IMG/VR virus record: IMGVR_UViG_3300025035_000013
Span: 24,627-88,626 of that record
Strand: one strand, 5' to 3'
Source: a virus
Length of the DNA stretch: 64,000 bases
Shown: one piece after another, positions 8,862 through 44,730 of the stretch
Layout of the letters: each line of letters opens with the position of its first letter
How positions within the stretch are numbered: the stretch's first letter is position 1
Position numbers and translations under genes: made by a program
Notes under the pieces: generated by a model
Database searches by the model: none
Told to the model about the DNA's origin: nothing
The model's input: only the letters and a program-made list of their open reading frames with translations

Positions 8862-9467
8862 TCAAACATCTATTACAGGATGCATCTTTGCATTGAATTC
8901 TGCTTCTGTATATCTTACACCATTCAGATACCAGAATTTATCTCCATTGATATATTCAACTGCAGGGCCGTCTTCACGATGGCATTTACCGTTCAGATAC
9001 CAGATTTTGTCCCCATTAGCACATTCAATCGCCGGGCCGTCTTCACGATGGCATTTACCGTTCAGATACCAACTTTTGTCCCCATTAGCACATTCAATCG
9101 CTGGGCCGTCTTCACGATGGCATTTACCGTTCAGATACCAACTTTTGTAACCATCAGCATATTCAATCGCTGGGCCGTCTTCACGATGGCATTTACCGTT
9201 CAGATACCAGATTTTGTCTCCATTAGCATATTCAATCGCCGGGCCGTCTTCACGGTGATATTGTCCATTCAAACCCCAGTATTTGTCCCCATTAGCATAT
9301 TCAATCGCCGGGCCGTCTTCACGATGCAATTCACCATTCAGGTACCAGTAATTGTCTCCATTAACTTTTTCAATGGCAGGGCCGTCTTCACGATGAAGTT
9401 CCCCATTCAAGTACCAGAGTTTGTCGCCATTAGCATTAACCTGAACCTCGACTTCGTTCGTAAACAT
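8862..9467 (-). CDS. HREDGPA 23-aa repeat protein, copy A (7 repeats)
   Basis: Tandem WYLNGxxHREDGPAxExANGDKx units followed by TEAEFNAKM. Confidence 0.85.
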   Translation of the reverse strand: MFTNEVEVQVNANGDKLWYLNGELHREDGPAIEKVNGDNYWYLNGELHREDGPAIEYANGDKYWGLNGQYHREDGPAIEYANGDKIWYLNGKCHREDGPAIEYADGYKSWYLNGKCHREDGPAIECANGDKSWYLNGKCHREDGPAIECANGDKIWYLNGKCHREDGPAVEYINGDKFWYLNGVRYTEAEFNAKMHPVIDV

Positions 9468-9530
9468 TTTCTTCTCCGTGTTGTTTAATTGATGTATACA
9501 TTATACCACGACTCAATTAAATGTCAAATG
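9468..9530 (-). promoter_or_regulatory. repeated early promoter-RBS cassette
   Basis: TTGACA (9527-9522), 16 nt, TG-n-TATAAT, then GGAG RBS; near-identical at 8 sites. Confidence 0.85.
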
Positions 9531-9548
9531 CCTTAATGAATCAAGCAT

Positions 9549-9639
9549 TTATCTAAACGACCGTCTAGGATGCTGCACCATTCTTGTTGTTTTTGAGTTG
9601 ATGGGTGCATATCGACTGTGTCAAGATAATGGGGCTAAG
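9549..9639. repeat. about 90-bp dispersed repeat, copy 1 (copy 2 at 10483-10572)
   Basis: Direct alignment; copies differ by substitutions and an internal micro-inversion. Confidence 0.85.
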
Positions 9640-9667
9640 CCGCCGCGGGAGAGTACGGTCAATAAGT

Positions 9668-9946
9668 TCATGGAGTAACCATCATAGCCATTCCGGTCAC
9701 TACCACACCCGCAAGAGCGCCGCCTAATAACGTACTGACCTCATCCCGTAAATCTGCCCGGCGGCTAGCAGGGTGGAGGATATCCCACACTTCTTTGAGT
9801 ATCCCGACGTTCGCCGCCGCCAACAGTCCAAGGAGTGCCGCCATCTGCATACTTGTGATGCCTCCCACAATCAGGCCGAGTGCCACCGTAATAGAAATGC
9901 AGTATCCAACAAAAAAGTGAGCCTTGTTATCCATCGATATTTTCAT
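9668..9946 (-). CDS. small GC-richer membrane protein (K-HF...G--KE-WD type)
   Basis: Three hydrophobic segments; DNKAHF and ILKEVWD motifs. Confidence 0.7.
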   Translation of the reverse strand: MKISMDNKAHFFVGYCISITVALGLIVGGITSMQMAALLGLLAAANVGILKEVWDILHPASRRADLRDEVSTLLGGALAGVVVTGMAMMVTP

Positions 9947-10010
9947 TTTATTTCTCCGTATTGTTTAATTGATGTATACATTATACCACGACTCAATTAA
10001 ATGTCAAATG
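9947..10010 (-). promoter_or_regulatory. repeated early promoter-RBS cassette
   Basis: TTGACA 10007-10002, TATAAT, GGAG; matches the 9468 copy. Confidence 0.85.
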
Positions 10011-10081
10011 CCGAAATAAATCAATCACTTAACAATCTTCACTTTAAACCCAAGCAGCGGTTCGATGTCAGCAACGGACAA

Positions 10082-10400
10082 TTACTTTTCAGTCTTCATC
10101 TTTGCATTGAATTCTGCTTCGGTGTATTCTACATCATCCAGATACCAATATTTGGTTCCGAGAACAGATTCAATAGCAGGACCGTCTTCACGATGGCGCC
10201 TACCGTTCAGATACCAGAATTTGCATCCATTGGCAAATTCAGCAGCAGGACCGCCGAGGCCGGGCCAGCAGGCCGTTCAGATACCATTCTTTATCGCCAT
10301 TTGCAGATTCAACCGCAGGGCCGTCTTCACGATGGAGGTTACCATTCAGATACCATTCTTTATCGTCATTATCGTAGAGCTTAACTTCGTTCGGAAGCAT
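10082..10400 (-). pseudogene. HREDGPA repeat gene, copy B, frameshifted
   Basis: MLPNEVKLYDND... first repeat intact; 19-nt GC-rich patch replaces 18 nt of repeat 2 and shifts frame; ends ...MKTEK*. Confidence 0.75.
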
Positions 10401-10464
10401 TTTATTTCCCCGTGTTGTTTAATTGAGGAATACATTATATCACGACACAATTAAATGTCAAACA
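10401..10464 (-). promoter_or_regulatory. repeated early promoter-RBS cassette
   Basis: TTGACA 10461-10456, TATAAT, GGGG RBS variant. Confidence 0.8.
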
Positions 10465-10482
10465 CCTTGATGAATCAATCAC

Positions 10483-10572
10483 TTATCTAAAAGACAGTCT
10501 AGGATGCTGTACCAGTCTCATTGTTTTGAGTTGATATGCACCCATCGACGGTATCAAGATAATGGGGCTAAG
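10483..10572. repeat. about 90-bp dispersed repeat, copy 2
   Basis: Aligns with 9549-9639. Confidence 0.85.
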
Positions 10573-10586
10573 ATGCCTTAGCCCCA
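10563..10586 (-). terminator. hairpin terminator after the ATPase gene
   Basis: TGGGGCTAAG-ATGC-CTTAGCCCCA perfect inverted repeat just after the stop; weak U-tract. Confidence 0.6.
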
Positions 10587-10592
10587 GTTAGG

Positions 10593-11477
10593 TCATCCAT
10601 TTACAGAAAAGTTATATAAACAAGGCCGTTCCCAGTCTTCCCCAAGTGCAACTTTCATCTTGAGAATATTCAAGGCACTTCTGATATTTAAATCTTTTGC
10701 CATTTTCACATGCTTCCTGATAAAATTCAACACATCTATCTTATCCTCGGACTCAAACCTTTCATCTTCATCGAAAATCTGAGCAATTCGTTCTATTTTC
10801 TCGTCCACATTGAGAGTCAAGTCGCATACTATAGAACGGCTCAGAATTGCCTGCGGGAACTTATGCAATTCTAGATTAGAAATGAAAATAATTTTGCCAG
10901 TGAATTCAAAACGACTAGGCACCTCATCATCTTTTGATTCTGCCCCCCAGGAGATAATCCGGCGGTCGGAAGAATCCAATGCAGCTTTTAAAATGCTTGC
11001 ACCAATCGGGTCACGAAAAGCTGTATCGAGGTCATCCAGAACGATTACCTTGCCGTTTTCATGAAAGAGAGTGGTGTACAAGTTGCGGGGAGTAGTATAA
11101 CCCTTCACAAACACGAAGTCACCATCCATAGTGCCGATTGTATCTTCAGTCAATCCCATATCTCGAAGTGCATTTAAAACGGTAAAAGACTTCCCGAGGC
11201 CGCCTGAACCTGTCACCACGAGGCTGGGGATAATACCTTTAGCTGCGAGTTTAGTGAATTGGGTCATGAAGTCGAACCGCTCAGCCACAGTAAATTCGGA
11301 TTTTTTAACTTCAAGCAAAACATCATCATCCACATCAGCTGCTGAAGTCTTGCCGAGTGTTCGAATTTTTGCTTCGAGTTTCTTCTTATCGTTAGATGTA
11401 GCAAGAGTTTTGCCATCTACGATATAAGAATATCGGCCAGTTTTTGAATAGAATTTAATCATGTTTGAGTATTTCAC
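10593..11477 (-). CDS. AAA+/P-loop ATPase
   Basis: Walker A GSGGLGKS, Walker B VIVLDD, sensor-like IIFISN and A-LSRS. Confidence 0.8.
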   Translation of the reverse strand: MKYSNMIKFYSKTGRYSYIVDGKTLATSNDKKKLEAKIRTLGKTSAADVDDDVLLEVKKSEFTVAERFDFMTQFTKLAAKGIIPSLVVTGSGGLGKSFTVLNALRDMGLTEDTIGTMDGDFVFVKGYTTPRNLYTTLFHENGKVIVLDDLDTAFRDPIGASILKAALDSSDRRIISWGAESKDDEVPSRFEFTGKIIFISNLELHKFPQAILSRSIVCDLTLNVDEKIERIAQIFDEDERFESEDKIDVLNFIRKHVKMAKDLNIRSALNILKMKVALGEDWERPCLYNFSVNG

Positions 11478-11531
11478 CGTGTTGTTTAATTGAGGAATAC
11501 ATTATATCACGACTCAATTAAATGTCAAATG
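11478..11531 (-). promoter_or_regulatory. repeated early promoter cassette
   Basis: TTGACA 11528-11523 and TATAAT; same sequence family. Confidence 0.8.
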
Positions 11532-11601
11532 CCGAAATAAATCAATTATTTAACAATCTTTACTTTAAACCGAATATCTTTTCGATGACTGCAACAGACA
11601 A

Positions 11602-12060
11602 TTACTTTGCAGTATTCATCTTTGCATTGAATTCTGCTTCGGTATGCTGTTTACCATCTAGATGCCATTCTTTGGTACCATCATTGTGCACGACGGCAGG
11701 ACCGTCTTCACGATGAAGTTGACCATTTTTATACCATTTTTTATCACCATCAGCATGTTCAACAGCAGGACCATTGTCTCTATGCAATTTGCCATTTTTA
11801 TACCATGCTTGAGTGCCATTAGCATATTTAACAGCAGGACCATTGTCTCGATGCAATTTGTCGTGAATATACCAGTATTTGTTTCCATTAGCATATTTAA
11901 CAGCAGGACCATTGTCTCGATGCAATTTGCCATTCAAATAATATTCTTCGGCGCCATTAGCATATTCAATTGCGGGCCCAGCTTTACGATGTAATTTGCC
12001 ATTCAAATAATATTCTTTGGCATCAGCATATTTTTTCACTTCGTAGTTTTTTGTTGTCAT
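11602..12060 (-). CDS. HREDGPA/HRDNGPA repeat protein, copy C (5 repeats, divergent)
   Basis: Repeat units plus TEAEFNAKMNTAK*. Confidence 0.85.
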   Translation of the reverse strand: MTTKNYEVKKYADAKEYYLNGKLHRKAGPAIEYANGAEEYYLNGKLHRDNGPAVKYANGNKYWYIHDKLHRDNGPAVKYANGTQAWYKNGKLHRDNGPAVEHADGDKKWYKNGQLHREDGPAVVHNDGTKEWHLDGKQHTEAEFNAKMNTAK

Positions 12061-12090
12061 TTTTTCCCCGCGTTATTTAATTGATGTTAT

Positions 12091-12098
12091 TATTTATA
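12091..12098 (-). promoter_or_regulatory. T4 late promoter TATAAATA
   Basis: Exact consensus about 30 nt upstream of the copy C start. Confidence 0.7.
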
Positions 12099-12138
12099 GT
12101 TATTTGATAATAGCTGAATTCAAATAATCATACATAAC

Positions 12139-12495
12139 TTAAAGTGTTATTTTCCAGTTACCTCGTTCGTCTTCTACTAAATTATAATTTCTCTTCCAGA
12201 CCGGCGATAAAGGAGTAAGATAGAGTTCTGGTTTAAACCCAAATTCTATCAACGTCTGGTTAATATGAGGGCGCAATTCTTTGAATCTTCCTTTTCCTCT
12301 CCATTTGCTTTTTGATAATTTCAGTGAATCTCCTGAAAATGCGCCTATCCCATTGAGTTTTACATGTCCTCCACAGACTGTAATATCGATTGGCATATCT
12401 CCAATCCATGCTGTTCCAGTCAATATTGCTTCACATTTAAACTCTATTTTATGGCCAGAAAGTTCAGCAATGCGTCTGAGGATAAGATTCTCCAT
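12139..12495 (-). CDS. hypothetical protein, possible GNAT-like fold
   Basis: WRGKGRFKEL resembles the acetyl-CoA binding R-G-x-G motif; weak. Confidence 0.5.
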   Translation of the reverse strand: MENLILRRIAELSGHKIEFKCEAILTGTAWIGDMPIDITVCGGHVKLNGIGAFSGDSLKLSKSKWRGKGRFKELRPHINQTLIEFGFKPELYLTPLSPVWKRNYNLVEDERGNWKITL

Positions 12496-12948
12496 TTAAG
12501 ATAGCAGAAGTTTGAATTGAGTAGCTGCTTGTTTGCCATCAAACTGTTCACCGTATTTATCTTTGAGTTTCTTCGTGATAACACCCAGTGATTTTTGCTC
12601 CAATTTAAGCCCACATACCCCAATAATAAATTTGACGGCGTCCAGCACTTGACCGGCCGAAATTTTAGTCGGAAGGAATGTTCTAACAATTTCAAGTTCA
12701 TTCAGCGTATGTAAAAACCTTGGGGCAGTAGATGACATGCCATTATCATTCATGTATCCAATTGTGTCAATCATACCCTTTTCAAACCGCTTTAATGTTT
12801 TTAATGTATCATCTGTGACTTCTCTGCGCTCATTTTTGCCAATTATTTCAGTCTCCCCGATAATTGTAGTCAATAAGGAAGATGTTGTAGAATCTTTCGC
12901 TTTTCTAGCAGTAAGTTGAGAATTCTTGCTGTCTTGTAATTTAGTCAT
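12496..12948 (-). CDS. GatB/YqeY domain protein
   Basis: A-KAKD----LL--I-GE...EL-I---FLP--- S pattern of YqeY. Confidence 0.75.
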   Translation of the reverse strand: MTKLQDSKNSQLTARKAKDSTTSSLLTTIIGETEIIGKNERREVTDDTLKTLKRFEKGMIDTIGYMNDNGMSSTAPRFLHTLNELEIVRTFLPTKISAGQVLDAVKFIIGVCGLKLEQKSLGVITKKLKDKYGEQFDGKQAATQFKLLLS

Positions 12949-12987
12949 TTATTGATTGGCATCATAGTAAAATTCTATTCAAAATAC

Positions 12988-13233
12988 TCATGCAGTGAAA
13001 GCATCAGCCATTTTTTTTGTTTTCAATTGTTTCTCGGTCAGAGTAACTTTAACACTGGTGCCATCAGGATTGATGACCTGTGAAATGTCCCATGCATAAA
13101 CCGAGCCAATCTCCGTACAGAATCCTTCTACATTAACCATTCGAATGTTGCCCTTCATGTTATCCATCATAGTACCATACCATCCATTCGCGAGTATAAC
13201 CCTCATACCCTTCTTAATATCGTTCGTAAACAT
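12988..13233 (-). CDS. small hypothetical protein (SH3-like beta pattern)
   Basis: Intact ORF with its own promoter cassette. Confidence 0.7.
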   Translation of the reverse strand: MFTNDIKKGMRVILANGWYGTMMDNMKGNIRMVNVEGFCTEIGSVYAWDISQVINPDGTSVKVTLTEKQLKTKKMADAFTA

Positions 13234-13296
13234 TTTCTTCTCCGTATTGTTTAATTGATGTATACATTATATCACGACTCAATTAAATGTCAAACA
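13234..13296 (-). promoter_or_regulatory. repeated early promoter-RBS cassette
   Basis: TTGACA 13293-13288, TATAAT, GGAG. Confidence 0.85.
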
Positions 13297-13306
13297 CCTA
13301 AATGAA

Positions 13307-13789
13307 TCAAATACTTAGCATATTCATATTGAGTTCAAACTCCGAGCCGAATTTACGAGCAACGACTTTTTTCAGACCTTCTACTGTGTTTGAGCGGCAA
13401 GCAACGACATTATCTTTATAAAACATATACTTCTGATATTTTTCTGAAAACACAACGATATTGTCTTTTCTCATATCTTTAAAGTCAGCTTTTGCCATCT
13501 TTTCGATATGAGTCAACACAGTATCATATTTGGTTTTACACCACGGATATTTTCCCACATGTTCATATACTTTATCTGCTGCCAGAGCAACAATATCATT
13601 CGTATCGATAGATTCATCGATGCTCAATTGAAGACAGTACTTATACAAATATTCGAGTTGATATGCAGCCGCAGAAGCGGGCACTTCAACATTAAATTCT
13701 TTTTTGAGCAACTCACCATACGGAGTAGCTGGGGTAAATGTATATAACTTGCGAATCAATTCAGATTGTGTCATTGCAATTTTCACCAT
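13307..13789 (-). CDS. hypothetical protein
   Basis: Intact ORF downstream of a cassette-type promoter at 13836-13831. Confidence 0.7.
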   Translation of the reverse strand: MVKIAMTQSELIRKLYTFTPATPYGELLKKEFNVEVPASAAAYQLEYLYKYCLQLSIDESIDTNDIVALAADKVYEHVGKYPWCKTKYDTVLTHIEKMAKADFKDMRKDNIVVFSEKYQKYMFYKDNVVACRSNTVEGLKKVVARKFGSEFELNMNMLSI

Positions 13790-13830
13790 GTTGTTTAACT
13801 GATATATATCATATCACTCATCAATTAAAA

Positions 13831-13920
13831 TGTCAAATACCTAGATAAATCAAATACTTATACTTATTATAGACATTAAAAACCCCACCGAAGTGGGGTT
13901 TTACTGTATCATACCTAAAA
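13831..13920. repeat. 90-bp direct repeat (promoter -35, terminator, last HNH codons), copy 1
   Basis: Identical to 14181-14270. Confidence 0.9.
13879..13902 (-). terminator. rho-independent terminator
   Basis: AAAACCCCAC-TTCG-GTGGGG-TTTTT on the minus strand; repeated at 14229-14252. Confidence 0.85.
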
Positions 13921-13924
13921 TTTG

Positions 13925-14125
13925 TTAACCCACCTTAGTATTTTTGAACAACATTGAACAAAGAAATAGGATACCAAGAGCATTCCAAAATCCAATTTCA
14001 TGTACACCGTCAATCGTACCAACAAATGCCGCATTCCACACCCACATCACAGGCAGAGCAAGAACCACAGAGATAATCGCAACCATTGCAATGATTTTCA
14101 AAAGACCTTCGATAATTTTTTTCAT
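13925..14125 (-). CDS. small two-TM membrane protein, copy 1
   Basis: Hydrophobic; near-identical to 14951-15154. Confidence 0.8.
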   Translation of the reverse strand: MKKIIEGLLKIIAMVAIISVVLALPVMWVWNAAFVGTIDGVHEIGFWNALGILFLCSMLFKNTKVG

Positions 14126-14189
14126 TTTATTTCTCCGTGTTATTTAATTGAGGAATACATTATACCACGACTAAATTAAATGTCAAATA
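14126..14189 (-). promoter_or_regulatory. repeated early promoter-RBS cassette
   Basis: TTGACA 14186-14181, TATAAT, GGAG. Confidence 0.85.
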
Positions 14190-14270
14190 CCTAGATAAAT
14201 CAAATACTTATACTTATTATAGACATTAAAAACCCCACCGAAGTGGGGTTTTACTGTATCATACCTAAAA
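14181..14270. repeat. 90-bp direct repeat, copy 2
   Basis: Identical to 13831-13920. Confidence 0.9.
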
Positions 14271-14832
14271 AATGAGGAGCCGCTAAAATTCTTGAATGTT
14301 TCGGCAAGAACCCTCGCAGATAATCCATTTGGTCAGCTAATACTCGTCTGTTTTGCATCAACAATCTTTCAGCATGATTTGGTGTGTACGGAATGTAAAT
14401 CAATTCCATGTCAATCTCGTGTAGTAAATAATCTGCTTTTTCATGATTACATGCTTTACATGCTGAAACTACATTTGTCCACACATTTTTACCTCCCTTT
14501 GAGGTCGGATGAATATGGTCGCACGATAATTTGTGTGAAGGATAATGTCTACCACAATATGCACAAATGTTTAAATCTCTGCTGAATAAATTAGTATTAG
14601 TAAGAGGTGGAATTCTTGTTTCGTATTTGATGGAATCTTTCAAGAATAATATCGGAGCTATATCCACCGCAGACCGTTCTCCAGTAATACGAGAAATGCC
14701 TCCTCTATATCTATTTGAATCCCCAAATTCATAACTCAAGGAGTCTTTAACTTTTAACAGAATAGAAGCTTCCATAGAAGCCCAATATTGTGGTTGACCT
14801 CCTTTGTCACAGACCAGATACTGATGTTTCAT
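14251..14832 (-). CDS. HNH endonuclease (McrA/HNH_5-like)
   Basis: CAYCG...DHIHP-SKGG-N-W-NVV-AC--CN--K. Confidence 0.9.
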   Translation of the reverse strand: MKHQYLVCDKGGQPQYWASMEASILLKVKDSLSYEFGDSNRYRGGISRITGERSAVDIAPILFLKDSIKYETRIPPLTNTNLFSRDLNICAYCGRHYPSHKLSCDHIHPTSKGGKNVWTNVVSACKACNHEKADYLLHEIDMELIYIPYTPNHAERLLMQNRRVLADQMDYLRGFLPKHSRILAAPHFLGMIQ

Positions 14833-14950
14833 TTTTTGCTCCTTTAATCATTTCGTAAATTCTTACAGGAATGACAATAGGCAATAAGCAAACTCTGATG
14901 AATTGGGCAAATCCCCAATAAAATTTCTGATTTGTCGACATTGTTATTCC

Positions 14951-15154
14951 TTATTTGTTAGACGTATTATTTTTGAACAACATTGAACAAAGAAATAGGA
15001 TACCAAGAGCATTCCAAAATCCAATTTCATGTACACCGTCAATCGTACCAACAAATGCCGCATTCCACACCCACATCACAGGCAGAGCAAGAACCACAGA
15101 GATAATCGCAACCATTGCAATGCCCCCCAAAAACATCCCGATATTTTTTTGCAT
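14951..15154 (-). CDS. small two-TM membrane protein, copy 2
   Basis: Core IAMVAII...SMLFKN identical to copy 1. Confidence 0.8.
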   Translation of the reverse strand: MQKNIGMFLGGIAMVAIISVVLALPVMWVWNAAFVGTIDGVHEIGFWNALGILFLCSMLFKNNTSNK

Positions 15155-15238
15155 TTCATTCCTTTCCTTTAATAATCAATGATGATTGCCATTTTAACAA
15201 CGGTAGAATAATTGTCAAATTTTTGCTAAAAAGAATAA

Positions 15239-15508
15239 TTAAACTCGAGTATTCCATTTTTCTATGCATTCGTCACGCGAGTCGCCATAAATTTCCGCGC
15301 CGCACCCGCCTGCCACTACAGGGCAGTTGTAAGTCCAGCACTTATTATCCTCACTTTTTCTATCCTCAAATGAAATGTAATGTTTAATGCCATCCTCTAT
15401 CCTCCAATAAAGCCCGTTAGGGTATAATGTTTCATTATCTAAAACATCTGAAGGTCTTCCGCAAAATGGACACGATTTTTGCTTTTTTGTAGACATGAAT
15501 TCTTCCAT
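15239..15508 (-). CDS. Lar-family restriction alleviation-like zinc protein
   Basis: CPFCG...C---GGCG...WN-R pattern. Confidence 0.65.
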   Translation of the reverse strand: MEEFMSTKKQKSCPFCGRPSDVLDNETLYPNGLYWRIEDGIKHYISFEDRKSEDNKCWTYNCPVVAGGCGAEIYGDSRDECIEKWNTRV

Positions 15509-15524
15509 TTAATGTAACAATTAA

Positions 15525-15878
15525 GTGTGCTTTTTCTGTTCCCAAGAAAAGCACCAAACTCGGCACTACACGACAATCAAGCCGCTAGTGCATATAAGCT
15601 ATCATTAGCTGCGTTTACTTTATTTACGCTATTTTAGTCAGTCGTCTGACTATCCCAAGAAAGTCTATTTCCTCAAAATCGAATCTATATCAGGCCCATT
15701 ACTAATGATATTAATTTGGTAGTTCAGTTTGATGCACCCATCATATTGGATAGTCCCTTCGTCAAGTTCTATCTATCCGTTTACTGTTTAACACCATTAG
15801 TGGTGGACCTGGGGAGGTACTGCCCCTCCCGTCTTCCAAGCCTTTAATACTCTCCTGCTTTACAATCTTTCGATTGTG
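15525..15878 (-). ncRNA. ssrA: circularly permuted (two-piece) tmRNA
   Basis: Acceptor piece ending CAGGTCC-A-CCA at 15801 precedes the coding piece starting GGGCCTG at 15697; G3:U70 pair; tag AANDSLYALAA* at 15612-15577. Confidence 0.9.
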
Positions 15879-15883
15879 AATTT

Positions 15884-16328: not shown

Positions 16329-16333
16329 ATTAT

Positions 16334-16407: not shown

Positions 16408-16437
16408 ATAAATCAGATTATCATTTTACGAATCTGT

Positions 16438-28196: not shown

Positions 28197-28430
28197 TTAC
28201 CTTCTTTAATAGATTAATCTTTACCTTCTTTAATAGATAGGATTAATTAATTCTTTACCTTCTTTAATTGATTAATCTTTACCTTCTTTAATTGATTAAT
28301 TCTTTACCTTCTTTAATTAATTAATTCTTTACCTTCTTTAATTGATTAATTCTTTACCTTCTTTAATTAATTAATTCTTTACCTTCTTTAATTGATTAAT
28401 TCTTTACCTTCTTTAATTGATTAATCTAAT
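28197..28430. repeat. AT-rich tandem array of nine ~25-bp units (TCTTTACCTTCTTTAATTRATTAAT)
   Basis: Core TTACCTTCTTTAAT at 28197, 28221, 28255, 28279, 28304, 28329, 28354, 28379, 28404. Confidence 0.95.
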
Positions 28431-38512: not shown

Positions 38513-38607
38513 AATTATCTCCCTGTTATTATTTTAAACCATGTCAAGCCAACAATCAAATTATTTTGATTTGTGAATCTTTGGAGGAAGAATAATAACT
38601 CAATTAC

Positions 38608-39171
38608 TCACAGCCCATTATCTTTGAAATGCTTATTGATTACTTCAAATGCAACAGGCGTATAATTATTCCTTTCTACAGATACGTTGAAGTACTTAGG
38701 GTCGTCGATTTCAGTCCAGACCGGTGAACCATGTTCTAAAGAAAATAATTGCTTCTTCACAGTTCCAGAATGTAAATGCCCATGCACGTTACTCCTCCAC
38801 CTGCTTAGACTTCCTGGGTGGATTGGAATGTGGCTCAAATGAATCCTGTCTAGCATGTGACAAGACCTAACATCTTTAAAGTACTGATTATAAGCTGACA
38901 TCTTCAAACTATCGTGATTTCCTTTAATGAGGACTTTTGCGCCATTCAATCTTGGCATGACATTATGAAAGTGAGTAGCACCAAAACACACATCTCCCAA
39001 GAAATAAACTGTATCATTTGGCCCAACAACTGAATTATGATTATTAACCATAGTCTCGTCCATCTCTTCACACGAGTCAAATGTCCTCAAATTTGAACCA
39101 TCCTCGTTTAAAAATGAGAGGATGTTACAATGGCCAAAGTGTTGGTCTGCAATTAGAAAAGTGTCACTCAT
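38608..39171 (-). CDS. calcineurin-like phosphoesterase
   Basis: D-HFGH, LGD, KGNHD, SH-P, HGH-H. Confidence 0.85.
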   Translation of the reverse strand: MSDTFLIADQHFGHCNILSFLNEDGSNLRTFDSCEEMDETMVNNHNSVVGPNDTVYFLGDVCFGATHFHNVMPRLNGAKVLIKGNHDSLKMSAYNQYFKDVRSCHMLDRIHLSHIPIHPGSLSRWRSNVHGHLHSGTVKKQLFSLEHGSPVWTEIDDPKYFNVSVERNNYTPVAFEVINKHFKDNGL

Positions 39172-39775
39172 TTATTGCTCCTTTTGTAATCTCTTTTATT
39201 ACTTTTGTTATGTCGCTTTGAAACTCATCTATTGTACCATTATTGAAAATTACAAAATCGATGTACTTTTCATCTAACGTGATATTGGACGCGTGATTGA
39301 CTGCTCCGTTTATTTTATTATCAGAATCGAATTTATTATCGTCGCGAATAATATGGACAATAAATCCCCCCAAATCTTTTACTCTTTTAGCCTCATTCTC
39401 AAAACGTAAATCAGTATTGACAACAGATTGTCCTTTATTCCATGCATGCTCTATTCCTTCTTGGGCCAAATCGACCCATACGGAATCTTTAATTAATACT
39501 CTGCCCCATTCAGTACCTAGAGTTTGCGCCATGTATCTGATACTTCGCTCAAATTTATAATGGGCGGAATTTTTGATATTTGGGTTCTCAATGTCTTCCA
39601 TCGGGATATTGAACATCGCCGAGAGTCCTCGTTTAATTGGGGCGGCAAATGATACTTTTGACCAATTACCACCATCTCGGATAAGATGATTTGCAAATGT
39701 GTCTTTACCAGACCCAGGTAAACCGTGGCAAGCAATGAGAATATGGGGCAATTTATCTTTATTATCAGCGCACAA
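39164..39775 (-). CDS. deoxynucleoside monophosphate kinase (gp1-like)
   Basis: G--GSGKDT, SFA-PIK, Q-LGTE-GR, D-RF-NE, H-S. Confidence 0.85.
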   Translation of the reverse strand: MCADNKDKLPHILIACHGLPGSGKDTFANHLIRDGGNWSKVSFAAPIKRGLSAMFNIPMEDIENPNIKNSAHYKFERSIRYMAQTLGTEWGRVLIKDSVWVDLAQEGIEHAWNKGQSVVNTDLRFENEAKRVKDLGGFIVHIIRDDNKFDSDNKINGAVNHASNITLDEKYIDFVIFNNGTIDEFQSDITKVIKEITKGAINE

Positions 39776-39804
39776 AATTTCTACCCCCAGCTAGAAATTT
39801 CATT

Positions 39805-40182
39805 TTATTCCTTTACAATCTTCACTTTAAAACCAAGTAGGTTTTCGATGTCAGCAACAGACAATTCCTTTACAGGATGCATCTTTGCATTGAATTCTGC
39901 TTCGGTACATATTACACCATTCAGATACCAGAAATTGTCTCCATTAGCAAATTCAATCGCCGGGCCGTCTTCATGCCGCAGTTTATCGTTCAGATACCAG
40001 TGTTTATCTCCATTAGCAAATTCAATCGCCGGGCCGTCTTCTCGATGGCGTTTACCGTTCAGGTACCAGTATTTGTTTCCGTCGACATATTCAGCAGCAG
40101 GGCCGTCTTCACGGTGCAATTTACCGTTCAGGTACCAATAAATGTCGCCATTATCATGAACCTTAACTTCGTATGTTTTCAT
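39805..40182 (-). CDS. HREDGPA repeat protein, copy D (3 repeats plus ELSVADIE tail)
   Basis: Repeat units visible in the translation. Confidence 0.85.
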   Translation of the reverse strand: MKTYEVKVHDNGDIYWYLNGKLHREDGPAAEYVDGNKYWYLNGKRHREDGPAIEFANGDKHWYLNDKLRHEDGPAIEFANGDNFWYLNGVICTEAEFNAKMHPVKELSVADIENLLGFKVKIVKE

Positions 40183-40183
40183 T

Positions 40184-40630
40184 TTATTCCTTTACAATCT
40201 TCACTTTATACCCAAGTAGCTTTTCGATGTCAGCAACAGACAATTCTTTTTCTGGATTGAGCATTGCATTAAATTCTGCTTCGGTGTATCTTATATCATC
40301 TAGATACCAGTATTTGTTTCCGTCGACATATTCAATCGCCGGGCCGTCTTCACGATGGCATTTACCGTTCAGATACCAGAATTTATCTCCATTGGCGTAT
40401 TCAGCAGCAGGGCCGTCTTCACGATGCAGTTTACCATTCAAAAACCAATGTTTGTTTCCATTAGCAAGTTCTACTGCAGGGCCGTCTTCACGATGCAGTT
40501 TACCATCTTTGAACCAGATTTTGTTTCCATTGGCAAGTTCAATTGCAGGGCCGTCTTCACGATGCAATTCACAATTCAGATACCAATAAATGCCGCCATC
40601 ATCATTAATCTTGATTTCGTATGGTTTCAT
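40184..40630 (-). CDS. HREDGPA repeat protein, copy E (4 repeats plus tail)
   Basis: Repeat units visible. Confidence 0.85.
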   Translation of the reverse strand: MKPYEIKINDDGGIYWYLNCELHREDGPAIELANGNKIWFKDGKLHREDGPAVELANGNKHWFLNGKLHREDGPAAEYANGDKFWYLNGKCHREDGPAIEYVDGNKYWYLDDIRYTEAEFNAMLNPEKELSVADIEKLLGYKVKIVKE

Positions 40631-40870
40631 CTATTCCTTTACAATTTTCACTTTAAAACCGAGTAGGTTTTCGATGTCAGCAACAGACAATTCCTTCACA
40701 GGATGCATCTTTACATTGAATTCTGCTTCGGTGCATTCTACCCCATTCAGACACCAATGTTTATCTCCAGTAGCATATTCAATCGCCGGGCCGGCTTCAC
40801 TGTGAAGTTTACCATTCAGATACCAGAATTTGGTGCCATTACCATGAACCTTGACTTCGTATGTTTTCAT
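40631..40870 (-). CDS. HREDGPA repeat protein, copy F (1 repeat plus tail)
   Basis: MKTYEV start at 40870. Confidence 0.8.
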   Translation of the reverse strand: MKTYEVKVHGNGTKFWYLNGKLHSEAGPAIEYATGDKHWCLNGVECTEAEFNVKMHPVKELSVADIENLLGFKVKIVKE

Positions 40871-40871
40871 T

Positions 40872-41387
40872 TTAGTCCTTAACAATTTTCACGTTATACC
40901 CAAGTAGGTTTTCGATGTCAGCAACAGACAATTCCTTCACAGGATGCATCTTTGCATTGAATTCTGCTTCGGTGTATTCTAAACCATTCAGATACCAGAA
41001 TTTATCTCCATTGGAAAGTTCTATGGCAGGGCCGGCTTCACGATGGCATTTACCATTCAGATACCAGAATTTGGAACCATCAGCATATTCAGCAGCAGGA
41101 CCGTCTTCACGATGGCGTGTATCGTTCAGATACCAGTATTTGTTTCCATTAGCAAGTTCAACAGCAGGGCCGTCCTCACGATGGCGTTTACCGTTCAGGC
41201 ACCAGAATTTGTTTCCATTGGCACTTTCAATCGCAGGACCGTCTTCACGGTGGCGCTTATCGTTCAGATACCAATATTTGTTTCCATTAGCAAGTTCAAC
41301 AGCCGGACCGTCCTCACGATGTTGTTTACCATTCATGTACCAGAATTTGTCACCATTGTCTTGCACTTTAACTTCGTATGTTTTCAT
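40872..41387 (-). CDS. HREDGPA repeat protein, copy G (5 repeats plus tail)
   Basis: Repeat units visible. Confidence 0.85.
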   Translation of the reverse strand: MKTYEVKVQDNGDKFWYMNGKQHREDGPAVELANGNKYWYLNDKRHREDGPAIESANGNKFWCLNGKRHREDGPAVELANGNKYWYLNDTRHREDGPAAEYADGSKFWYLNGKCHREAGPAIELSNGDKFWYLNGLEYTEAEFNAKMHPVKELSVADIENLLGYNVKIVKD

Positions 41388-41388
41388 T

Positions 41389-41766
41389 TTATTCCTTTAC
41401 AATCTTCACTTTATACCCAAGTAGGTTTTCGATGTCAGCAACAGACAATTCCTTCACAGGATGCATCTTTGCATTGAATTCTGCTTCGGTGTATTCTAAA
41501 CCATTCAGATACCAGAATTTATCTCCATTGGAAAGTTCTATGGCAGGGCCGGCTTCACGATGGCATTTACCATTCAGATACCAGAATTTGGAACCATCAG
41601 CATATTCAGCAGCAGGACCGTCTTCACGATGGCGTGTATCGTTCAGATACCAGTATTTGTTTCCATTAGCAAGTTCAACAGCAGGGCCGTCTTCACGATG
41701 GTGTTCACCATTCAGGTACCAGTGGGTGGTGCCATTACCATGAACCTTGACTTCGTATGTTTTCAT
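41389..41766 (-). CDS. HREDGPA repeat protein, copy H (3 repeats plus tail)
   Basis: 3' 281 bp identical to copy G. Confidence 0.85.
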   Translation of the reverse strand: MKTYEVKVHGNGTTHWYLNGEHHREDGPAVELANGNKYWYLNDTRHREDGPAAEYADGSKFWYLNGKCHREAGPAIELSNGDKFWYLNGLEYTEAEFNAKMHPVKELSVADIENLLGYKVKIVKE

Positions 41767-41780
41767 TTTGTTTTATCCAA

Positions 41781-43049
41781 TTATTTAATTTCTTCAAATT
41801 TAGACGTGATATCTTTATCAAATCTAATATCAACAAACCTAGGCAAAAACAGACTATATTGTTTAGTATTCTTATCAGTGATTAGTTGATTATAAAGAAT
41901 CTCCATAATTTCACCAATATATTTCTTATCAAAAAACATCCTCCGCTGGTCATCTGAAAATCCAGAACCTACATTGCCTTTGATGAGTCCGTCATCAGTA
42001 GAATATTCAAATGCGCCGAGCATCCCGGCATATTTACCCGTGCCTTCGATTATCTCAGTAATTCGCACTTCAATACTCTCTACCGCCTTCATTTTACCAA
42101 TCCCCTTTACTCGTTTTGGTTCCCATGTCTGTTTGATGTTCTTCATCATGGCGCCCTCGTGCCCGTGTGAAATACATTCCTCAAACATTTTTTGCGCTTC
42201 TTCAGGAGAATTTATGCTGCGGGTCTCAGCAAGTATAATCATATTGTGATTTAGCGCTTTCGACATTGCCTCGGTGAGAGTTTGCAATCTCACATCATAA
42301 GGAATTTTGCTAGTAACATCAACAATGTCCCATGCCACCATACGGATACTATCTGCCTCTTCTTTAGTAATTGTTCCCTTATTGGCTTTGCTGATTATAC
42401 CATTCCCGGTCTTTCTATCAATAATCTTGCCATCTCGCACGATGAGCAATTCACCATCAATCGTAACGCACTCAGCACCAAATGCACTTTGCATCTGGGA
42501 ATCAAATACTCCTAGTGTCTGAATTTCCTTGCCATTTCTGGACCAAGCTGATGCTTTTGTGCCATCCCAAATTAAATGACATCTTGCACCATCGAATTTA
42601 ATTTGCCCAATACAAGGGTATTTGATTCCAGAAATATCTTTGTGCGCTAACATCACATCGAATACAGGCACGATGCCAGGCCACACTCGCGCGGCTAGTG
42701 TATCACTTGTTCCACATCGAAGGTCCCGTTGAATTACTCGCTCCAATACAATTGCAGAGGCAGGAGACAGCCTGGAAAGTATATTTGAAAGATATTGAAT
42801 TGCTTGATTGCCAGTATATTTTCTAGTAGAGAAAACCGTCAATTCATCGATTGCTTTATCTAAACTGATTTTGGTGACATACTCGGTGTATTCAGGAATT
42901 TTTTTAATGCCGTATGTGAGTGTTTTATCATACGCTGCTTGAAATACTCGCTTCAGTACCTTATTATCTTTCTCTCGTTCTAAAATTTTAACTTTATCAT
43001 TCGTTGAAGGAGTAGATGTCAGTTCATTCAAAATATCAAGAATACTCAT
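41781..43049 (-). CDS. gp30: ATP-dependent DNA ligase (T4 gp30)
   Basis: KFDGAR, DGEL, WD, EG-M-K, K-K, VGSGFSD, LFLPRF. Confidence 0.93.
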   Translation of the reverse strand: MSILDILNELTSTPSTNDKVKILEREKDNKVLKRVFQAAYDKTLTYGIKKIPEYTEYVTKISLDKAIDELTVFSTRKYTGNQAIQYLSNILSRLSPASAIVLERVIQRDLRCGTSDTLAARVWPGIVPVFDVMLAHKDISGIKYPCIGQIKFDGARCHLIWDGTKASAWSRNGKEIQTLGVFDSQMQSAFGAECVTIDGELLIVRDGKIIDRKTGNGIISKANKGTITKEEADSIRMVAWDIVDVTSKIPYDVRLQTLTEAMSKALNHNMIILAETRSINSPEEAQKMFEECISHGHEGAMMKNIKQTWEPKRVKGIGKMKAVESIEVRITEIIEGTGKYAGMLGAFEYSTDDGLIKGNVGSGFSDDQRRMFFDKKYIGEIMEILYNQLITDKNTKQYSLFLPRFVDIRFDKDITSKFEEIK

Positions 43050-43089
43050 TTTAAGCCCTTTTCCATCATCTAGATGTATGATACATCAA

Positions 43090-43464
43090 TCACTTAACAA
43101 TCTTTACTTTACATCCAAGTAACTTTTCGATGTCAGCAACAGACAATTCCTTTACAGTATTCATCTTTGCATTGAACTCTGCTTCGGTGTATTCTACACC
43201 ATTCAACAACCAATAGTTGTCTCCATTAACATATTCCACAGCAGGGCCGTCTTCACGATGGCGCTTACCGTTCAGAAACCAGAATTTGTCTCCATTAGCA
43301 AATTCAATCGCCGGGCCGTCTTCGCGGTGATTTTTACCGTTCATACACCAGTATTTGTCTCCATTAGCAAATTCAATCGCCGGCCCGTCTTCGCGGTGAT
43401 GTTTACCGTTCAGGTACCAATAAATGTCGCCATTTTCATGAACCTTGACTTCGTATGTTTTCAT
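43090..43464 (-). CDS. HREDGPA repeat protein, copy I (3 repeats plus tail)
   Basis: MKTYEV start at 43464 behind a promoter cassette. Confidence 0.85.
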   Translation of the reverse strand: MKTYEVKVHENGDIYWYLNGKHHREDGPAIEFANGDKYWCMNGKNHREDGPAIEFANGDKFWFLNGKRHREDGPAVEYVNGDNYWLLNGVEYTEAEFNAKMNTVKELSVADIEKLLGCKVKIVK

Positions 43465-43520
43465 TTTCTTCACCATGTTGTTTAATTGATGTATATCACG
43501 ACTCAATTAAATGTCAAATG
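43465..43520 (-). promoter_or_regulatory. repeated early promoter cassette (variant -10 and RBS)
   Basis: TTGACA 43517-43512; same family with a small deletion. Confidence 0.7.
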
Positions 43521-43534
43521 ACCAAATGAATCAA

Positions 43535-43840
43535 TCACTTAACAACCTTCACTTTAAAACCGAGTAGTTTTTCGATGTCAGCAACAGATAATTCCTTCGC
43601 AGGATGCATCTTTGCATTGAATTCTGCTTCGGTGTATTCTACCCCATTCAGATACCAGTAGTTGTCTCCATTAGCATATTCCACAGCAGGACCGTCTTCA
43701 CGGTGAAGTTTACCAGCTTTGAACCAGACTTTGTCTCCATTAGCATATTCAATCGTTGAGCCGTCTTCGCGGTTCCGCTTGCCGTTCAGATACCAGAATT
43801 TGTTTCCATTAGCATGAACCTCGACTTCGTATGTTTTCAT
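43535..43840 (-). CDS. HREDGPA repeat protein, copy J (2 repeats plus tail)
   Basis: Repeat units visible. Confidence 0.85.
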   Translation of the reverse strand: MKTYEVEVHANGNKFWYLNGKRNREDGSTIEYANGDKVWFKAGKLHREDGPAVEYANGDNYWYLNGVEYTEAEFNAKMHPAKELSVADIEKLLGFKVKVVK

Positions 43841-43904
43841 TTTGTTTCTCCGTGTTGTTTAATTGATGTATACATTATACCACGACTCAATTAAATGTCA
43901 AATG
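43841..43904 (-). promoter_or_regulatory. repeated early promoter-RBS cassette
   Basis: TTGACA 43901-43896, TATAAT, GGAG; matches the 9947 copy. Confidence 0.85.
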
Positions 43905-43975
43905 CCGAAATAAATCAATTACTTAACAATCTTCACTTTAAACCCAAGTAACTTTTCGATGTCAGCAACAGACAA

Positions 43976-44149
43976 TTACTTTTCAGTCTTCATCTTTGCA
44001 TTGAATTCTGCTTCGGTGTATTCTACATCATCCAGATACCAATATTTGGTTCCGAGAACAGATTCAATCGCAGGACCGTCTTCACGGTGAAGTTGGCCGT
44101 TCAGAAACCAGTATGTGTCTCCGGCATTTTCAACTTCAAGTTCTTTCAT
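43976..44149 (-). CDS. HREDGPA repeat protein, copy K (1 repeat, tail cut off by TAA)
   Basis: MKELEV start at 44149; the in-frame tail continues after the stop to 43919. Confidence 0.75.
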   Translation of the reverse strand: MKELEVENAGDTYWFLNGQLHREDGPAIESVLGTKYWYLDDVEYTEAEFNAKMKTEK

Positions 44150-44166
44150 TTTCTTCTCCATGTTGT

Positions 44167-44730
44167 TCAAGTGTTCAATAATGAAATTTTATCGCATATT
44201 TTATAATTCAGTGCTTCCTCTGCCGATAGATACATGTCTTCCGATGGCAAGAGGTATTTTTTGATATTAGTTATCGATAACTTTGTATATTTTTTGTAGT
44301 GATTCAACATTCTAGAATACGTCAGTTCGTATTCTTTGTTGATTGCAATAAGTTCATTATGCTTTCCTTCTGCGCACCACGAATACTGGTGACTCATGAT
44401 AGAAGTATTTGGGGTTAGAATTCTGTGTCCTTTTTCTCCCGCTAAAAAAACCATTAATCCAGCGCTCTGTACACACCCAAGTCCTATCGTCCTAACGGGA
44501 ATTCTTGAACTTTCCATAATGTCAATAATCGCATATGCATCCAATAATGACCCGCCCGGGCTATTGATAATTAAATTAAGAAAATCCGGTTGGGGATTAT
44601 TTACGTAATTATTATGTAATATCCATTCGCACACTCTACTGGCAGAATCATTATCAATGTTCTCGAAGAGTAAATAAATATTGGCGATTTGTGGTTCATA
44701 ACGGTTGTCATCTTCTTTATCTTTTTTCAT
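44167..44730 (-). CDS. clpP: ClpP-like protease proteolytic subunit
   Basis: INSPGGS, G---SAG (Ser), MSHQ (His), D-YLSAEEA (Asp). Confidence 0.9.
   Translation of the reverse strand: MKKDKEDDNRYEPQIANIYLLFENIDNDSASRVCEWILHNNYVNNPQPDFLNLIINSPGGSLLDAYAIIDIMESSRIPVRTIGLGCVQSAGLMVFLAGEKGHRILTPNTSIMSHQYSWCAEGKHNELIAINKEYELTYSRMLNHYKKYTKLSITNIKKYLLPSEDMYLSAEEALNYKICDKISLLNT

What the first reader, a model, noticed from the sequence alone, without database searches (positions are those of the whole stretch)
8862..44170. Eleven-member, modular HREDGPA-repeat gene family acting like a recombining binder library
Seen: 11 paralogs (A-K) in three clusters at ~8.9-12.1, 39.8-41.8 and 43.1-44.2 kb. Each is an N-cap (mostly MKTYEVKV), 1-7 copies of a 69-bp/23-aa unit (about 37 units in total) and a C-cap (TEAEFNAKM, often plus ELSVADIExLLGxKVKIVK). 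W-x-x-N-G and H-R-E-D-G-P-A are nearly invariant, while the positions after NG and after E vary widely. Several copies sit behind identical promoter cassettes. Known: such units resemble beta-hairpin (MORN/YwqK-like) repeats, seen as uncharacterised proteins in large viruses. Inference: an early-expressed repertoire diversified by unit shuffling, perhaps binding host defence proteins or signalling nucleotides.
Basis: partly seen in the sequence, partly recalled or inferred. Interest (0 to 1): 0.8.

Follow-up and report, generated by a model that had tools for sequence, protein, structure and literature searches.

The report
Recombining MORN-like repeat gene family in phage
An uncultured T4-like groundwater phage spends about 7% of its known DNA on 17 small, early-promoter-driven genes built from a 23-residue MORN-like beta-hairpin repeat; these genes are the only places where otherwise identical assemblies of the phage differ, so they look like a fast-recombining set of binding proteins whose targets are unknown.

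Summary
All 11 minus-strand paralogs lie where stated: 10 are intact and B is frameshifted. Six more lie just past the window end, giving 17 genes, about 58 units and 6.7% of the 98.7-kb contig. The unit has a fixed framework (W3, N6, H10, R11, G14, P15, A16, E18, G22) and variable positions 2, 8, 9, 17, 19 and 23. AlphaFold gives a confident model (pLDDT 91), and its best solved matches are all MORN proteins.

The family is not unique. There are about 27,000 sequence clusters, viral in the Atlas clusters checked. Arrays of up to 19 genes occur in other viral contigs, relatives occur in giant viruses, and bacterial copies sit on mobilizable elements. This scan noted such arrays on other DNA before. 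No paper mentions the motif.

New here: across 11 other assemblies of this phage (about 125 kb aligned), every difference lies inside family genes. These include clean one-unit (C) and three-unit (L6) indels and a replaced tract in H.

Early expression rests on consensus sigma-70 cassettes and weak metatranscriptome evidence. The binding targets are untested. Verdict: a real, recurrent and uncharacterised phage multigene family, and a new variant of a known kind.

The parts
8862..9467 (-). Paralog A: 201 aa, 7 units, odd N-cap MFTNEVEV, no C-terminal tail
   Evidence: The exact protein is indexed in 56 blocks of the assembly collection. Its first 14 coding bases are shared with the unrelated gene at 12988-13233.
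9468..9560 (-). Promoter/RBS cassette driving A (TTGACA, 16-nt spacer, TGnTATAAT, GGAG, ATG)
10082..10400 (-). Paralog B, a pseudogene. A GC-rich 13-nt stretch at 10253-10265 replaces the 12 nt that encode H-R-E-D and shifts the frame. It also carries TAA at the K-E-L codon.
   Evidence: L168 is 100% identical across B, and the antisense 127-aa ORF is called over B in L168 and L169.
10401..10493 (-). Promoter/RBS cassette driving B
11602..12060 (-). Paralog C: 152 aa, 5 units, divergent HRDNGPA motif, basic (pI 9.1). TAA stop at the tail junction; the tail DNA is decaying.
   Evidence: An allele missing exactly one unit (129 aa) occurs in L169.
39805..40182 (-). Paralog D: 125 aa, 3 units plus tail. 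This is the modelled member.
40184..40630 (-). Paralog E: 148 aa, 4 units plus tail
40631..40870 (-). Paralog F: 79 aa, 1 unit plus tail
40872..41387 (-). Paralog G: 171 aa, 5 units plus tail. It equals H with two extra units.
   Evidence: 281-bp exact tract shared with H at a two-unit offset
41389..41766 (-). Paralog H: 125 aa, 3 units plus tail. It follows the DNA ligase gene directly and has no cassette.
   Evidence: All 19 differences between L001 and this genome lie in H, and the variant tract has no donor in the contig.
43090..43464 (-). Paralog I: 124 aa, 3 units plus tail
43465..43534 (-). Degenerate promoter cassette driving I
43535..43840 (-). Paralog J: 101 aa, 2 units plus tail
43841..43933 (-). 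Promoter/RBS cassette driving J: 12/12 match to the sigma-70 consensus, with TG before the -10 hexamer
43976..44149 (-). Paralog K: 57 aa from the ATG, 1 unit. TAA at the tail junction with intact tail DNA downstream. A 93-bp exact tract is shared with B, 33 kb away.

Best explanation
This is a lineage-specific expansion, to 17 genes, of a widespread viral family of small cytoplasmic MORN-like repeat proteins. Each protein is a single-layer sheet of 23-residue beta-hairpins. It is closed by an N-cap strand (MKTYEVKV) and a helical C-cap (TEAEFNAKM), and often carries an extra helix-strand tail.

Shown:
- The fold class, the fixed framework and the variable positions.
- Transcription signals of early, host-RNA-polymerase type.
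- Tight, possibly coupled operons in which the last tail codons supply an AAGGA Shine-Dalgarno-like sequence for the next gene.
- Gene and unit numbers that change by homologous recombination between 69-bp units, between conserved caps and between promoter cassettes.

This recombination makes the family the only polymorphic part of an otherwise identical phage across 11 other assemblies.

Inferred: the proteins act early in infection as stoichiometric binders of host or rival-element proteins. The variable residues would form the contact surface. Beta-sheet geometry puts positions 2, 4, 9, 17 and 19 on one face, but I could not check this on coordinates.

The most specific version is neutralisation of defence or toxin effectors, as the MORN-variant immunity protein YwqK does for its toxin. 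It is a guess that I put at roughly 0.3.
For: Anatomy.

Framework versus variable positions, with overall pN/pS 0.36.

Fold: AlphaFold2 pLDDT 91.2. The top PDB hits are all MORN proteins, namely MORN1, the MORN4/Myo3a complex, junctophilin with a CaV1.1 peptide, and RSP1 (probability 0.99-1.0, E from 2e-3). Swiss-Prot models agree, with YwqK at rank 28.

Early cassettes. PeSL cassettes are the known precedent in T4-like phages (PMC4122927).

Recombination:
- Exact tracts of 281, 128, 93 and 127 bp against about 74% mean unit identity.
- The nearest neighbour of 24 of 57 units lies in another cluster.

Population variation:
- Differences fall only in family genes.
- C loses exactly one unit, and L6 exists as 262-aa and 193-aa alleles.

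Selection for function:
- 16 of 17 genes are intact.
- The same cap architecture is kept at 64-81% identity in many other viral proteins.

Mobile-element association: early region of Celeribacter phage P12053L; 8 tandem genes between mobC and a weak (below Pfam cutoff) relaxase-like gene in Janthinobacterium; integrase or replicase neighbours in Undibacterium and Ralstonia.

Weak RNA evidence.
Against: - No partner is known, and no experiment exists for any member. A literature search for the motif returned nothing.
- Fold-search E-values against solved MORN structures are modest (2e-3), with TM 0.37-0.44.
- Per-site pN/pS above 1 at positions 5, 17 and 19 comes from a crude pairwise count on recombining repeats. 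It is not a valid test of positive selection.
- The 'one variable face' is reasoned from strand alternation, not measured on coordinates.
- The other assemblies may come largely from one aquifer site, and some may re-assemble the same reads. Short-read assemblers break at these arrays, so part of the variation could be an assembly effect.
- The RNA contigs could reflect contaminating DNA or the higher k-mer multiplicity of a 17-copy family.
Confidence: 0.55

Rival explanations
1. The proteins are MORN-type membrane or scaffold proteins, not inhibitors. They would tether phage or host complexes to the inner membrane or to one another during infection, for example in replication or assembly factories or in superinfection exclusion. 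Copy number would tune dosage, not specificity.
For: The fold matches MORN proteins, which are classically scaffolds, and the matches include PIP5K MORN regions. The arrays lie among replication and recombination genes: ligase, rIIA/rIIB, gp46/47, polymerase and UvsX.
Against: The proteins have no hydrophobic segments or signal peptides. All but C are acidic (pI 4.4-6.4), which argues against binding anionic bacterial membranes. A pure dosage role does not explain position-specific variability. The homodimer prediction gave no verdict.
Confidence: 0.12
2. The family is a by-product of recombination-prone repeats and cassettes. Under this reading the genes are dispensable passengers that amplify and decay neutrally in hyperplastic regions, with no important function.
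For: B is a pseudogene. Four copies carry a premature TAA, and C's tail is decaying. Unit indels are tolerated. PeSL-type cassettes are known to shuffle dispensable genes (PMC4122927).
Against: 16 of 17 frames are open. Overall pN/pS is 0.36, with the framework under strong constraint. The caps are conserved across many distinct viruses. There are about 27,000 sequence clusters, and arrays recur in unrelated viral contigs and on mobilizable elements. The family takes 6.7% of a size-limited genome.
Confidence: 0.1
3. The proteins are sponges for immune signalling nucleotides or DNA mimics. The repeated acidic H-R-E-D ladder would bind small molecules or imitate DNA to block restriction or signalling defence systems.
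For: Most members are acidic and elongated. They sit at early-expression positions.
Against: Charge density is far below what I recall for classical DNA mimics: about -6 per 125 aa for D. A single-layer sheet has no obvious pocket. H, R, E and D are invariant, so they look structural and not specificity-determining. No known sponge or mimic family matched by sequence or fold.
Confidence: 0.07
4. The arrays, or their variation, are assembly artefacts of short-read metagenomics.
For: Logan contigs from three DNA runs fragment exactly at the array borders. Contigs L001 and L002 end in arrays. A 24,524-nt contig joins the ligase gene to L2 like a graph cycle.
Against: Protein A is recovered exactly in 56 collection blocks, and L4 in 42. 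SPAdes, MEGAHIT and JGI assemblies reproduce K-J-I, G-F-E-D, L2-L6 and A-B-C with identical gene lengths. Units are only about 74% identical, so a k=141 graph should not collapse them. The one-unit deletion in C is clean and in frame. The H variant tract has no donor paralog in the contig.
Confidence: 0.04

Closest known systems
Eukaryotic MORN-repeat proteins (MORN1, MORN4, junctophilins, RSP1, SETD7 N-domain)
   Same: Both have a beta-hairpin unit of about 23 residues that stacks into an elongated single-layer antiparallel sheet. These proteins are the best structural matches to the model. Solved complexes show such sheets binding a partner helix or peptide (6jle MORN4/Myo3a and 7rxq junctophilin-2/CaV1.1, listed).
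   Different: The sequence signature differs: WYLNGxxHREDGPAxExxNG here, as against the MORN consensus as I recall it, YxGxWxxGKxHGxG. Pfam MORN_2 is below threshold and Pfam MORN is not hit. These are 6-30 kDa stand-alone viral proteins with their own caps and tail.
YwqK immunity protein of Bacillus subtilis (MORN_2 repeats; COG2849)
   Same: Both are small stand-alone proteins of MORN-variant repeats. YwqK is named an immunity protein in Swiss-Prot, and by the usual model of immunity proteins it neutralises its toxin YwqJ by binding. Some metagenome relatives of this family are auto-annotated as 'antitoxin component YwqK'.
   Different: The structural match is weak (rank 28, E 0.2). The MORN_2 score is below the cutoff. 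No toxin gene is adjacent here. The link to immunity is an analogy only.
Pfam DUF6745 (PF20530)
   Same: This is the only curated family reaching its cutoff: A 38.1 bits, C 31.7 bits and D 27.0 bits against a cutoff of 27. Many relatives carry this precomputed label.
   Different: The matches cover only about positions 62-108 of a 206-position model, that is, one or two repeats and not the domain. The family itself has no known function.
PeSL (promoter-early stem-loop) cassettes of T4-like phages (Arbiol 2010, PMC2839356; Comeau 2014, PMC4122927)
   Same: Both are repeated early-promoter cassettes that flank accessory genes in hyperplastic regions of T4-like genomes and serve as recombination points. 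Here there are 11 copies of an ~85-nt cassette, and the recombination joint extends into the first codons of A.
   Different: I did not test whether these cassettes hold the terminator stem-loop that defines PeSLs. Here recombination also runs through the coding repeats themselves.
Repeat-protein multigene families of giant viruses (MORN, ankyrin and others; PMC5753266)
   Same: Both are expansions of repeat-domain paralogs in large viral genomes. Proteins from Harvfovirus, Powai lake megavirus and mimivirus R871, among others, match the model at 31-49% identity, and the Harvfovirus and Powai lake hits fit at rmsd under 2 A.
   Different: The host domain and genome scale differ. Here the units are minimal genes behind bacterial sigma-70 promoters in a T4-like phage.

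Membership tests
MORN-repeat fold class | Repeats of about 23 residues, each a beta-hairpin, forming a single-layer elongated sheet | tested here: met
   The AlphaFold2 model has pLDDT 91.2 and strand pairs recurring every 23 residues. All top PDB and Swiss-Prot structural hits are MORN proteins with probability 0.97-1.0, though E is only 2e-3 to 2e-2 and TM 0.36-0.44.
Pfam MORN_2 (PF07661) / MORN | Sequence score at or above the Pfam gathering threshold (29.6 bits for MORN_2) | tested here: not met
   The best score is C at 23.4 bits. D scores 17.0 and E 11.3. PF02493 MORN is not hit at all.
Pfam DUF6745 (PF20530) | Match to the full 206-position domain above 27 bits | tested here: inconclusive
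   A (38.1), C (31.7) and D (27.0) reach the score, but only over profile positions 62-108. The other paralogs fall below it.
YwqK-type immunity / antitoxin | Cognate toxin gene adjacent (YwqJ-like LXG or deaminase), with the toxin neutralised by binding | tested here: not met
   The neighbours are ligase, ClpP-like protease, dNMP kinase, RNA ligase, an AAA ATPase and other family members. No toxin gene is adjacent. Binding could not be tested.
PeSL cassettes of T4-like phages | Conserved early promoter repeated at the borders of accessory genes | tested here: met
   There are 11 copies with TTGACA, a 16-nt spacer and TGnTATAAT, 83% mean column identity over about 120 nt, in front of both family and non-family genes.
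PeSL cassettes of T4-like phages | Terminator-like stem-loop joined to the promoter | not tested
   I only looked by eye at the sequence upstream of the -35 hexamer. No folding was run.
Diversity-generating retroelement targets | A reverse transcriptase and template repeat in the genome | tested here: not met
   No RVT_1 match in the 98.7-kb contig. The contig is only about 57% complete.

The most novel reading that the evidence does not exclude
The arrays are a counter-defence (or counter-competitor) repertoire that diversifies by recombination. Under this reading, unit gain and loss, tract replacement and cassette-mediated shuffling keep generating new binding surfaces on one face of a MORN-like sheet. 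Phages, giant viruses and mobilizable elements would then share one general-purpose 'binder library' that is deployed at cell entry. It would be the mobile elements' mirror image of hypervariable host immune receptors, and it would need no reverse transcriptase.
Probability: 0.2. Interest if true: 0.85.

Novelty: new variant of a known kind. Interest (0 to 1): 0.62.

Why it matters
Phage genomes are size-limited, yet this one gives about 7% of its known sequence to one small-protein family. The same family recurs as arrays in many uncultured viral contigs (mostly phages), and members occur in giant viruses and on mobilizable elements. No paper in the searchable library mentions its motif.

Here the family is the only part of the genome that differs between assemblies, and it changes by whole repeat units. 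That is the pattern expected of genes in an arms race.

If the targets are host defence or toxin proteins, this would be a large, unexplored class of inhibitors and a natural, evolvable binder scaffold. If not, it is still a clear case of how T4-like hyperplastic regions generate novelty. Cultured relatives (Agrobacterium phage Atu_ph07, Celeribacter phage P12053L) make the question testable.

Tried and rejected
- Megablast of both array regions against 50,697 phage records found nothing.
- tblastn found only Celeribacter phage P12053L and Agrobacterium phage Atu_ph07.
- PHROGs gave only weak hits to unnamed families, and NCBIfam gave nothing meaningful.
- A profile search of PDB sequences found no relative with a solved structure.
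- Literature searches for the motif, for DUF6745 and for MORN with phage found no description of the family. The YwqK-phage papers concern other things.
- The homodimer prediction for D gave no verdict (score 0.02). It is not evidence either way.
- Domain fusions in five very long relatives (LRV/HEAT repeats, EF-hand, phage tail collar, or nothing) gave no functional hint.
- No reverse transcriptase is present, so a DGR mechanism is not supported.
- I tested whether the H variant in L001 is a chimera of known paralogs. It has no donor in the contig; the best match is 89%.
- I considered readthrough of the shared TAA stop but could not test it.
Full report
**What is there.** The window is the minus strand of bases 9373-73372 of a 98,719-bp IMG/VR virus record that CheckV estimates to be 57% complete. 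ORF listing and my own extraction confirm 11 minus-strand paralogs in three clusters:
- A 8862-9467, B 10082-10400 and C 11602-12060
- D to H at 39805-41766, five genes packed 0-1 nt apart (TAAAATG junctions)
- I 43090-43464, J 43535-43840 and K 43976-44149

Tandem Repeats Finder reports period-69 arrays in all larger members.

Searching the whole record with D found a fourth cluster of six more genes (148, 126, 82, 102, 79 and 262 aa; the last has 9 units). It lies at G000:C1:6569-9165, just past window base 64000. The family therefore has 17 genes and about 58 units. It covers 6,651 nt, or 6.7% of the contig.

**Unit anatomy.** In 57 aligned units (register KFWYLNGKLHREDGPAIEYANGD), conservation is as follows:
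- G14 and G22 are invariant.
- W3, H10, R11, P15 and A16 are at least 96% conserved.
- N6, E12 and E18 are 88-93% conserved.
- Positions 2, 8, 9, 19 and 23 exceed 2 bits of entropy, and position 17 alternates I/V/A.

Pairwise pN/pS is 0.36 overall and near zero on the framework. It exceeds 1 at positions 5, 17 and 19, but this is a crude count on recombining repeats and not a test of positive selection. By the alternation of side chains in antiparallel hairpins, positions 2, 4, 9, 17 and 19 should share one face of the sheet. That is my inference; I could not check it on coordinates.

**Fold.** I aligned D with 19 proteins of the same architecture: 17 from metagenomes at 64-81% identity and two of its own paralogs. 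With this alignment, AlphaFold2 gave pLDDT 91.2. The model has hairpins recurring every 23 residues, an N-cap strand, and two C-terminal helices (TEAEFNAKM and VADIENLL) followed by an extended KVKIVK.

The best solved matches are all MORN proteins: MORN1 of three parasites, MORN4/Myo3a, junctophilin-2 and radial-spoke RSP1. Probabilities are 0.99-1.0, E-values start at 2e-3 and TM is 0.37-0.44, which is modest, as expected for twisted elongated sheets. Swiss-Prot models agree and place B. subtilis immunity protein YwqK at rank 28.

By sequence the family is in no curated family. Pfam MORN_2 is below threshold. DUF6745 is reached only over one or two repeats of a 206-position model. PHROGs, NCBIfam and PDB sequences give nothing.

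**How widespread it is.**
- A word-indexed search returned 7,939 hits among 8,000 scored candidates.
- An exhaustive HMMER scan of 1.8 billion cluster representatives found 26,955 clusters at E of 1e-3 or better and 13,958 at 1e-10 or better. Some are proteins of more than 1,000 aa.
- The nearest ESM Atlas clusters are 100% viral.
- BFVD gives close structural matches in uncultured Caudovirales, at least six paralogs of Agrobacterium jumbo phage Atu_ph07, Celeribacter phage P12053L and giant viruses such as Harvfovirus, Powai lake megavirus and mimivirus R871.
- In IMG/VR, at least 542 stretches encode relatives. Of the 78 fetched loci, 50 hold two or more family ORFs. One has 19 in 12 kb, and two probably related contigs have 16 in 20 kb.
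- This scan had already noted HREDGPA arrays on other genomes.
- In cultured bacteria the genes sit on mobilizable elements. In Janthinobacterium sp. RB2P8, 8 tandem copies lie between a MobC/NikA gene and a weak, sub-threshold relaxase-like gene. In Undibacterium a copy lies next to an integrase and MobC. In Ralstonia a copy lies next to an integrase and a replicase.
- No paper in the searchable library contains the motif or DUF6745.

**Regulation.** An ~85-nt cassette occurs 11 times on the gene strand. It holds TTGACA, a 16-nt spacer, TGnTATAAT, then CAATTAAACAACACGGAGAA and ATG. Six copies drive family genes and five drive unrelated genes.

Inside operons the last tail codons (GTAAAGGAATAA, followed by AATG) supply an AAGGA Shine-Dalgarno-like sequence for the next gene. 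These cassettes resemble the PeSL promoter cassettes that mediate modular shuffling in T4-like phages (PMC4122927). I did not test for the stem-loop part.

Homology between cassettes reaches into coding sequence. A and the unrelated gene at 12988-13233 share their first 14 coding bases, which explains A's odd MFTN N-cap.

The phage is a divergent T4-like virus. It has rIIA/B, gp44/45, gp46/47, UvsW/X/Y, gp32 and gp59, and its ligase is at most 40% identical to those of Stenotrophomonas T4-like phages.

**Recombination within the genome**.
- H and G share a 281-bp exact tract offset by two units, so G equals H plus two units.
- L1 and L4 share 128 bp.
- K and B share 93 bp although they are 33 kb apart.
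- L6 holds a 127-bp exact repeat at a three-unit offset.
- Mean unit identity is only 74%.
- For 24 of 57 units the nearest relative lies in another cluster.

**Variation between assemblies.** The phage is present in at least 22 aquifer, groundwater and hot-spring DNA runs. I aligned eleven other contigs, about 125 kb in total, to this genome. Not one difference lies outside a family gene.
- In L001 all 19 differences over 10,463 bp lie in H, and 18 of them fall within a 170-bp stretch. That stretch is about 10% divergent and has no donor paralog in the contig.
- In L002 all 5 differences over 11,661 bp lie in G, F and D.
- In L169, C lacks exactly one unit (152 vs 129 aa, a clean 69-bp in-frame deletion), and all other aligned sequence in that 11-kb locus is identical.
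- L6 occurs as 262 aa in three contigs and 193 aa (three units fewer) in two. Both forms appear within one MEGAHIT study.
- A 24,524-nt contig, assembled in at least four samples, joins the ligase directly to L2 near the shared start codon. This is the joint expected of a tandem duplication or circle of the 24.6-kb segment between L2 and H, or of a graph cycle.

**Caveats on that result.** Many of these data sets probably come from one site, and some assemblies may reuse the same reads. Logan contigs break exactly at the array borders. Long reads are needed. Against a pure artefact: protein A is recovered exactly in 56 collection blocks, three assemblers reproduce the arrays, and units are too diverged to collapse at k=141.

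**Expression.** One aquifer metatranscriptome yielded small contigs on G, H, I and K and none on the neighbouring ligase, kinase or phosphatase genes. This is weak evidence. DNA carry-over and the higher k-mer multiplicity of a 17-copy family are confounders.

**Decay and oddities.**
- B is broken. A GC-rich 13-nt stretch (10253-10265) replaces the 12 nt encoding H-R-E-D and shifts the frame. L168 is identical across B, and an antisense ORF is called over B in L168 and L169.
- Four genes (L3, K, C, B) carry TAA in place of the GAA of K-E-LSVADIE. In three of them the tail DNA beyond the stop is still intact and in frame.

**Interpretation.** The evidence supports a real, selected, early-type family of MORN-like sheets that changes by homologous recombination at three levels: unit, cap and cassette. 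It is the variable compartment of an otherwise identical genome.

Binding is the most economical function. Solved MORN complexes bind partner helices on the sheet. The framework is fixed while a few positions vary. The family travels with elements that must establish themselves in a new cell. The targets are unknown. Neutralisation of defence or toxin proteins, as YwqK does for its toxin, is an analogy that I rate at about 0.3.

Other tests gave nothing decisive:
- The homodimer prediction gave no verdict.
- No reverse transcriptase is present.
- Domain fusions in long relatives were uninformative.

**Verdict.** This is a new variant of a known kind (MORN-like repeats and viral multigene families). 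It is of moderate to high interest because the family is large and unstudied and shows recombination-driven variation between assemblies.

Noticed in passing
window 43973-43978, 11599-11604, 10079-10084; also L3 at G000:C1:7762-7764: Four paralogs (K, C, B, L3) have TAA where the others have the GAA of K-E-LSVADIE. In K, B and L3 the 57 nt after the stop still encode an intact in-frame tail. In C the tail is decaying. Possible explanations are spread of a tail-less form by gene conversion, retention of the downstream RBS or cassette context, or readthrough. None is resolved.
   Followed up: partly
window 10253-10265: In B a GC-rich 13-mer (GCCCGGCCTCGGC) replaces exactly the 12 nt that encode H-R-E-D, in a genome of about 36% GC. 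L168 is 100% identical across B. Gene callers then pick the antisense 127-aa ORF, as in L168 and L169.
   Followed up: partly
L161/L165 (ena k141 contigs of 24,524 nt); corresponds to window 41766 joined to G000:C1:7017: A contig assembled in at least four samples joins the DNA ligase gene directly to paralog L2. It closes a 24.6-kb segment (L2 through rIIA/B, gp44/45, ClpP and ligase) on itself. This could be a tandem-duplication joint, an excised circle or an assembly cycle.
   Followed up: partly
window 12988-13233 and 9454-9467: An unrelated 81-aa gene starts with the same 14 coding bases (ATGTTTACGAACGA, MFTN) as paralog A, behind the same cassette. Cassette-mediated exchange therefore reaches into coding sequence.
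   Followed up: yes
L088 (Janthinobacterium sp. RB2P8, NZ_JBNYXO010000009.1:30468-40920), locus 3956-9152: Eight tandem, overlapping family genes sit between a MobC/NikA-like gene and a relaxase-like gene of a mobilizable element. Further copies lie on the same contig (L098, L123).
   Followed up: partly
window 8806-9488, 39725-41743 (+ strand): Long open frames run antisense to the arrays (for example 202 aa at 8880-9488). They exist because the repeat unit has no stop codon in those frames. They are by-products, not genes, but they can mislead gene callers.
   Followed up: yes
window 28242-28425: A 25-bp tandem repeat with 7.4 copies and 95% matches.
   Followed up: no
L053 (IMGVR_UViG_3300023174_000047, last 12 kb of a 204-kb contig); L060/L065: Other uncultured large phages carry even denser arrays of the same family: 19 ORFs with 63 motifs in 12 kb, and 16 ORFs in 20 kb.
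   Followed up: partly
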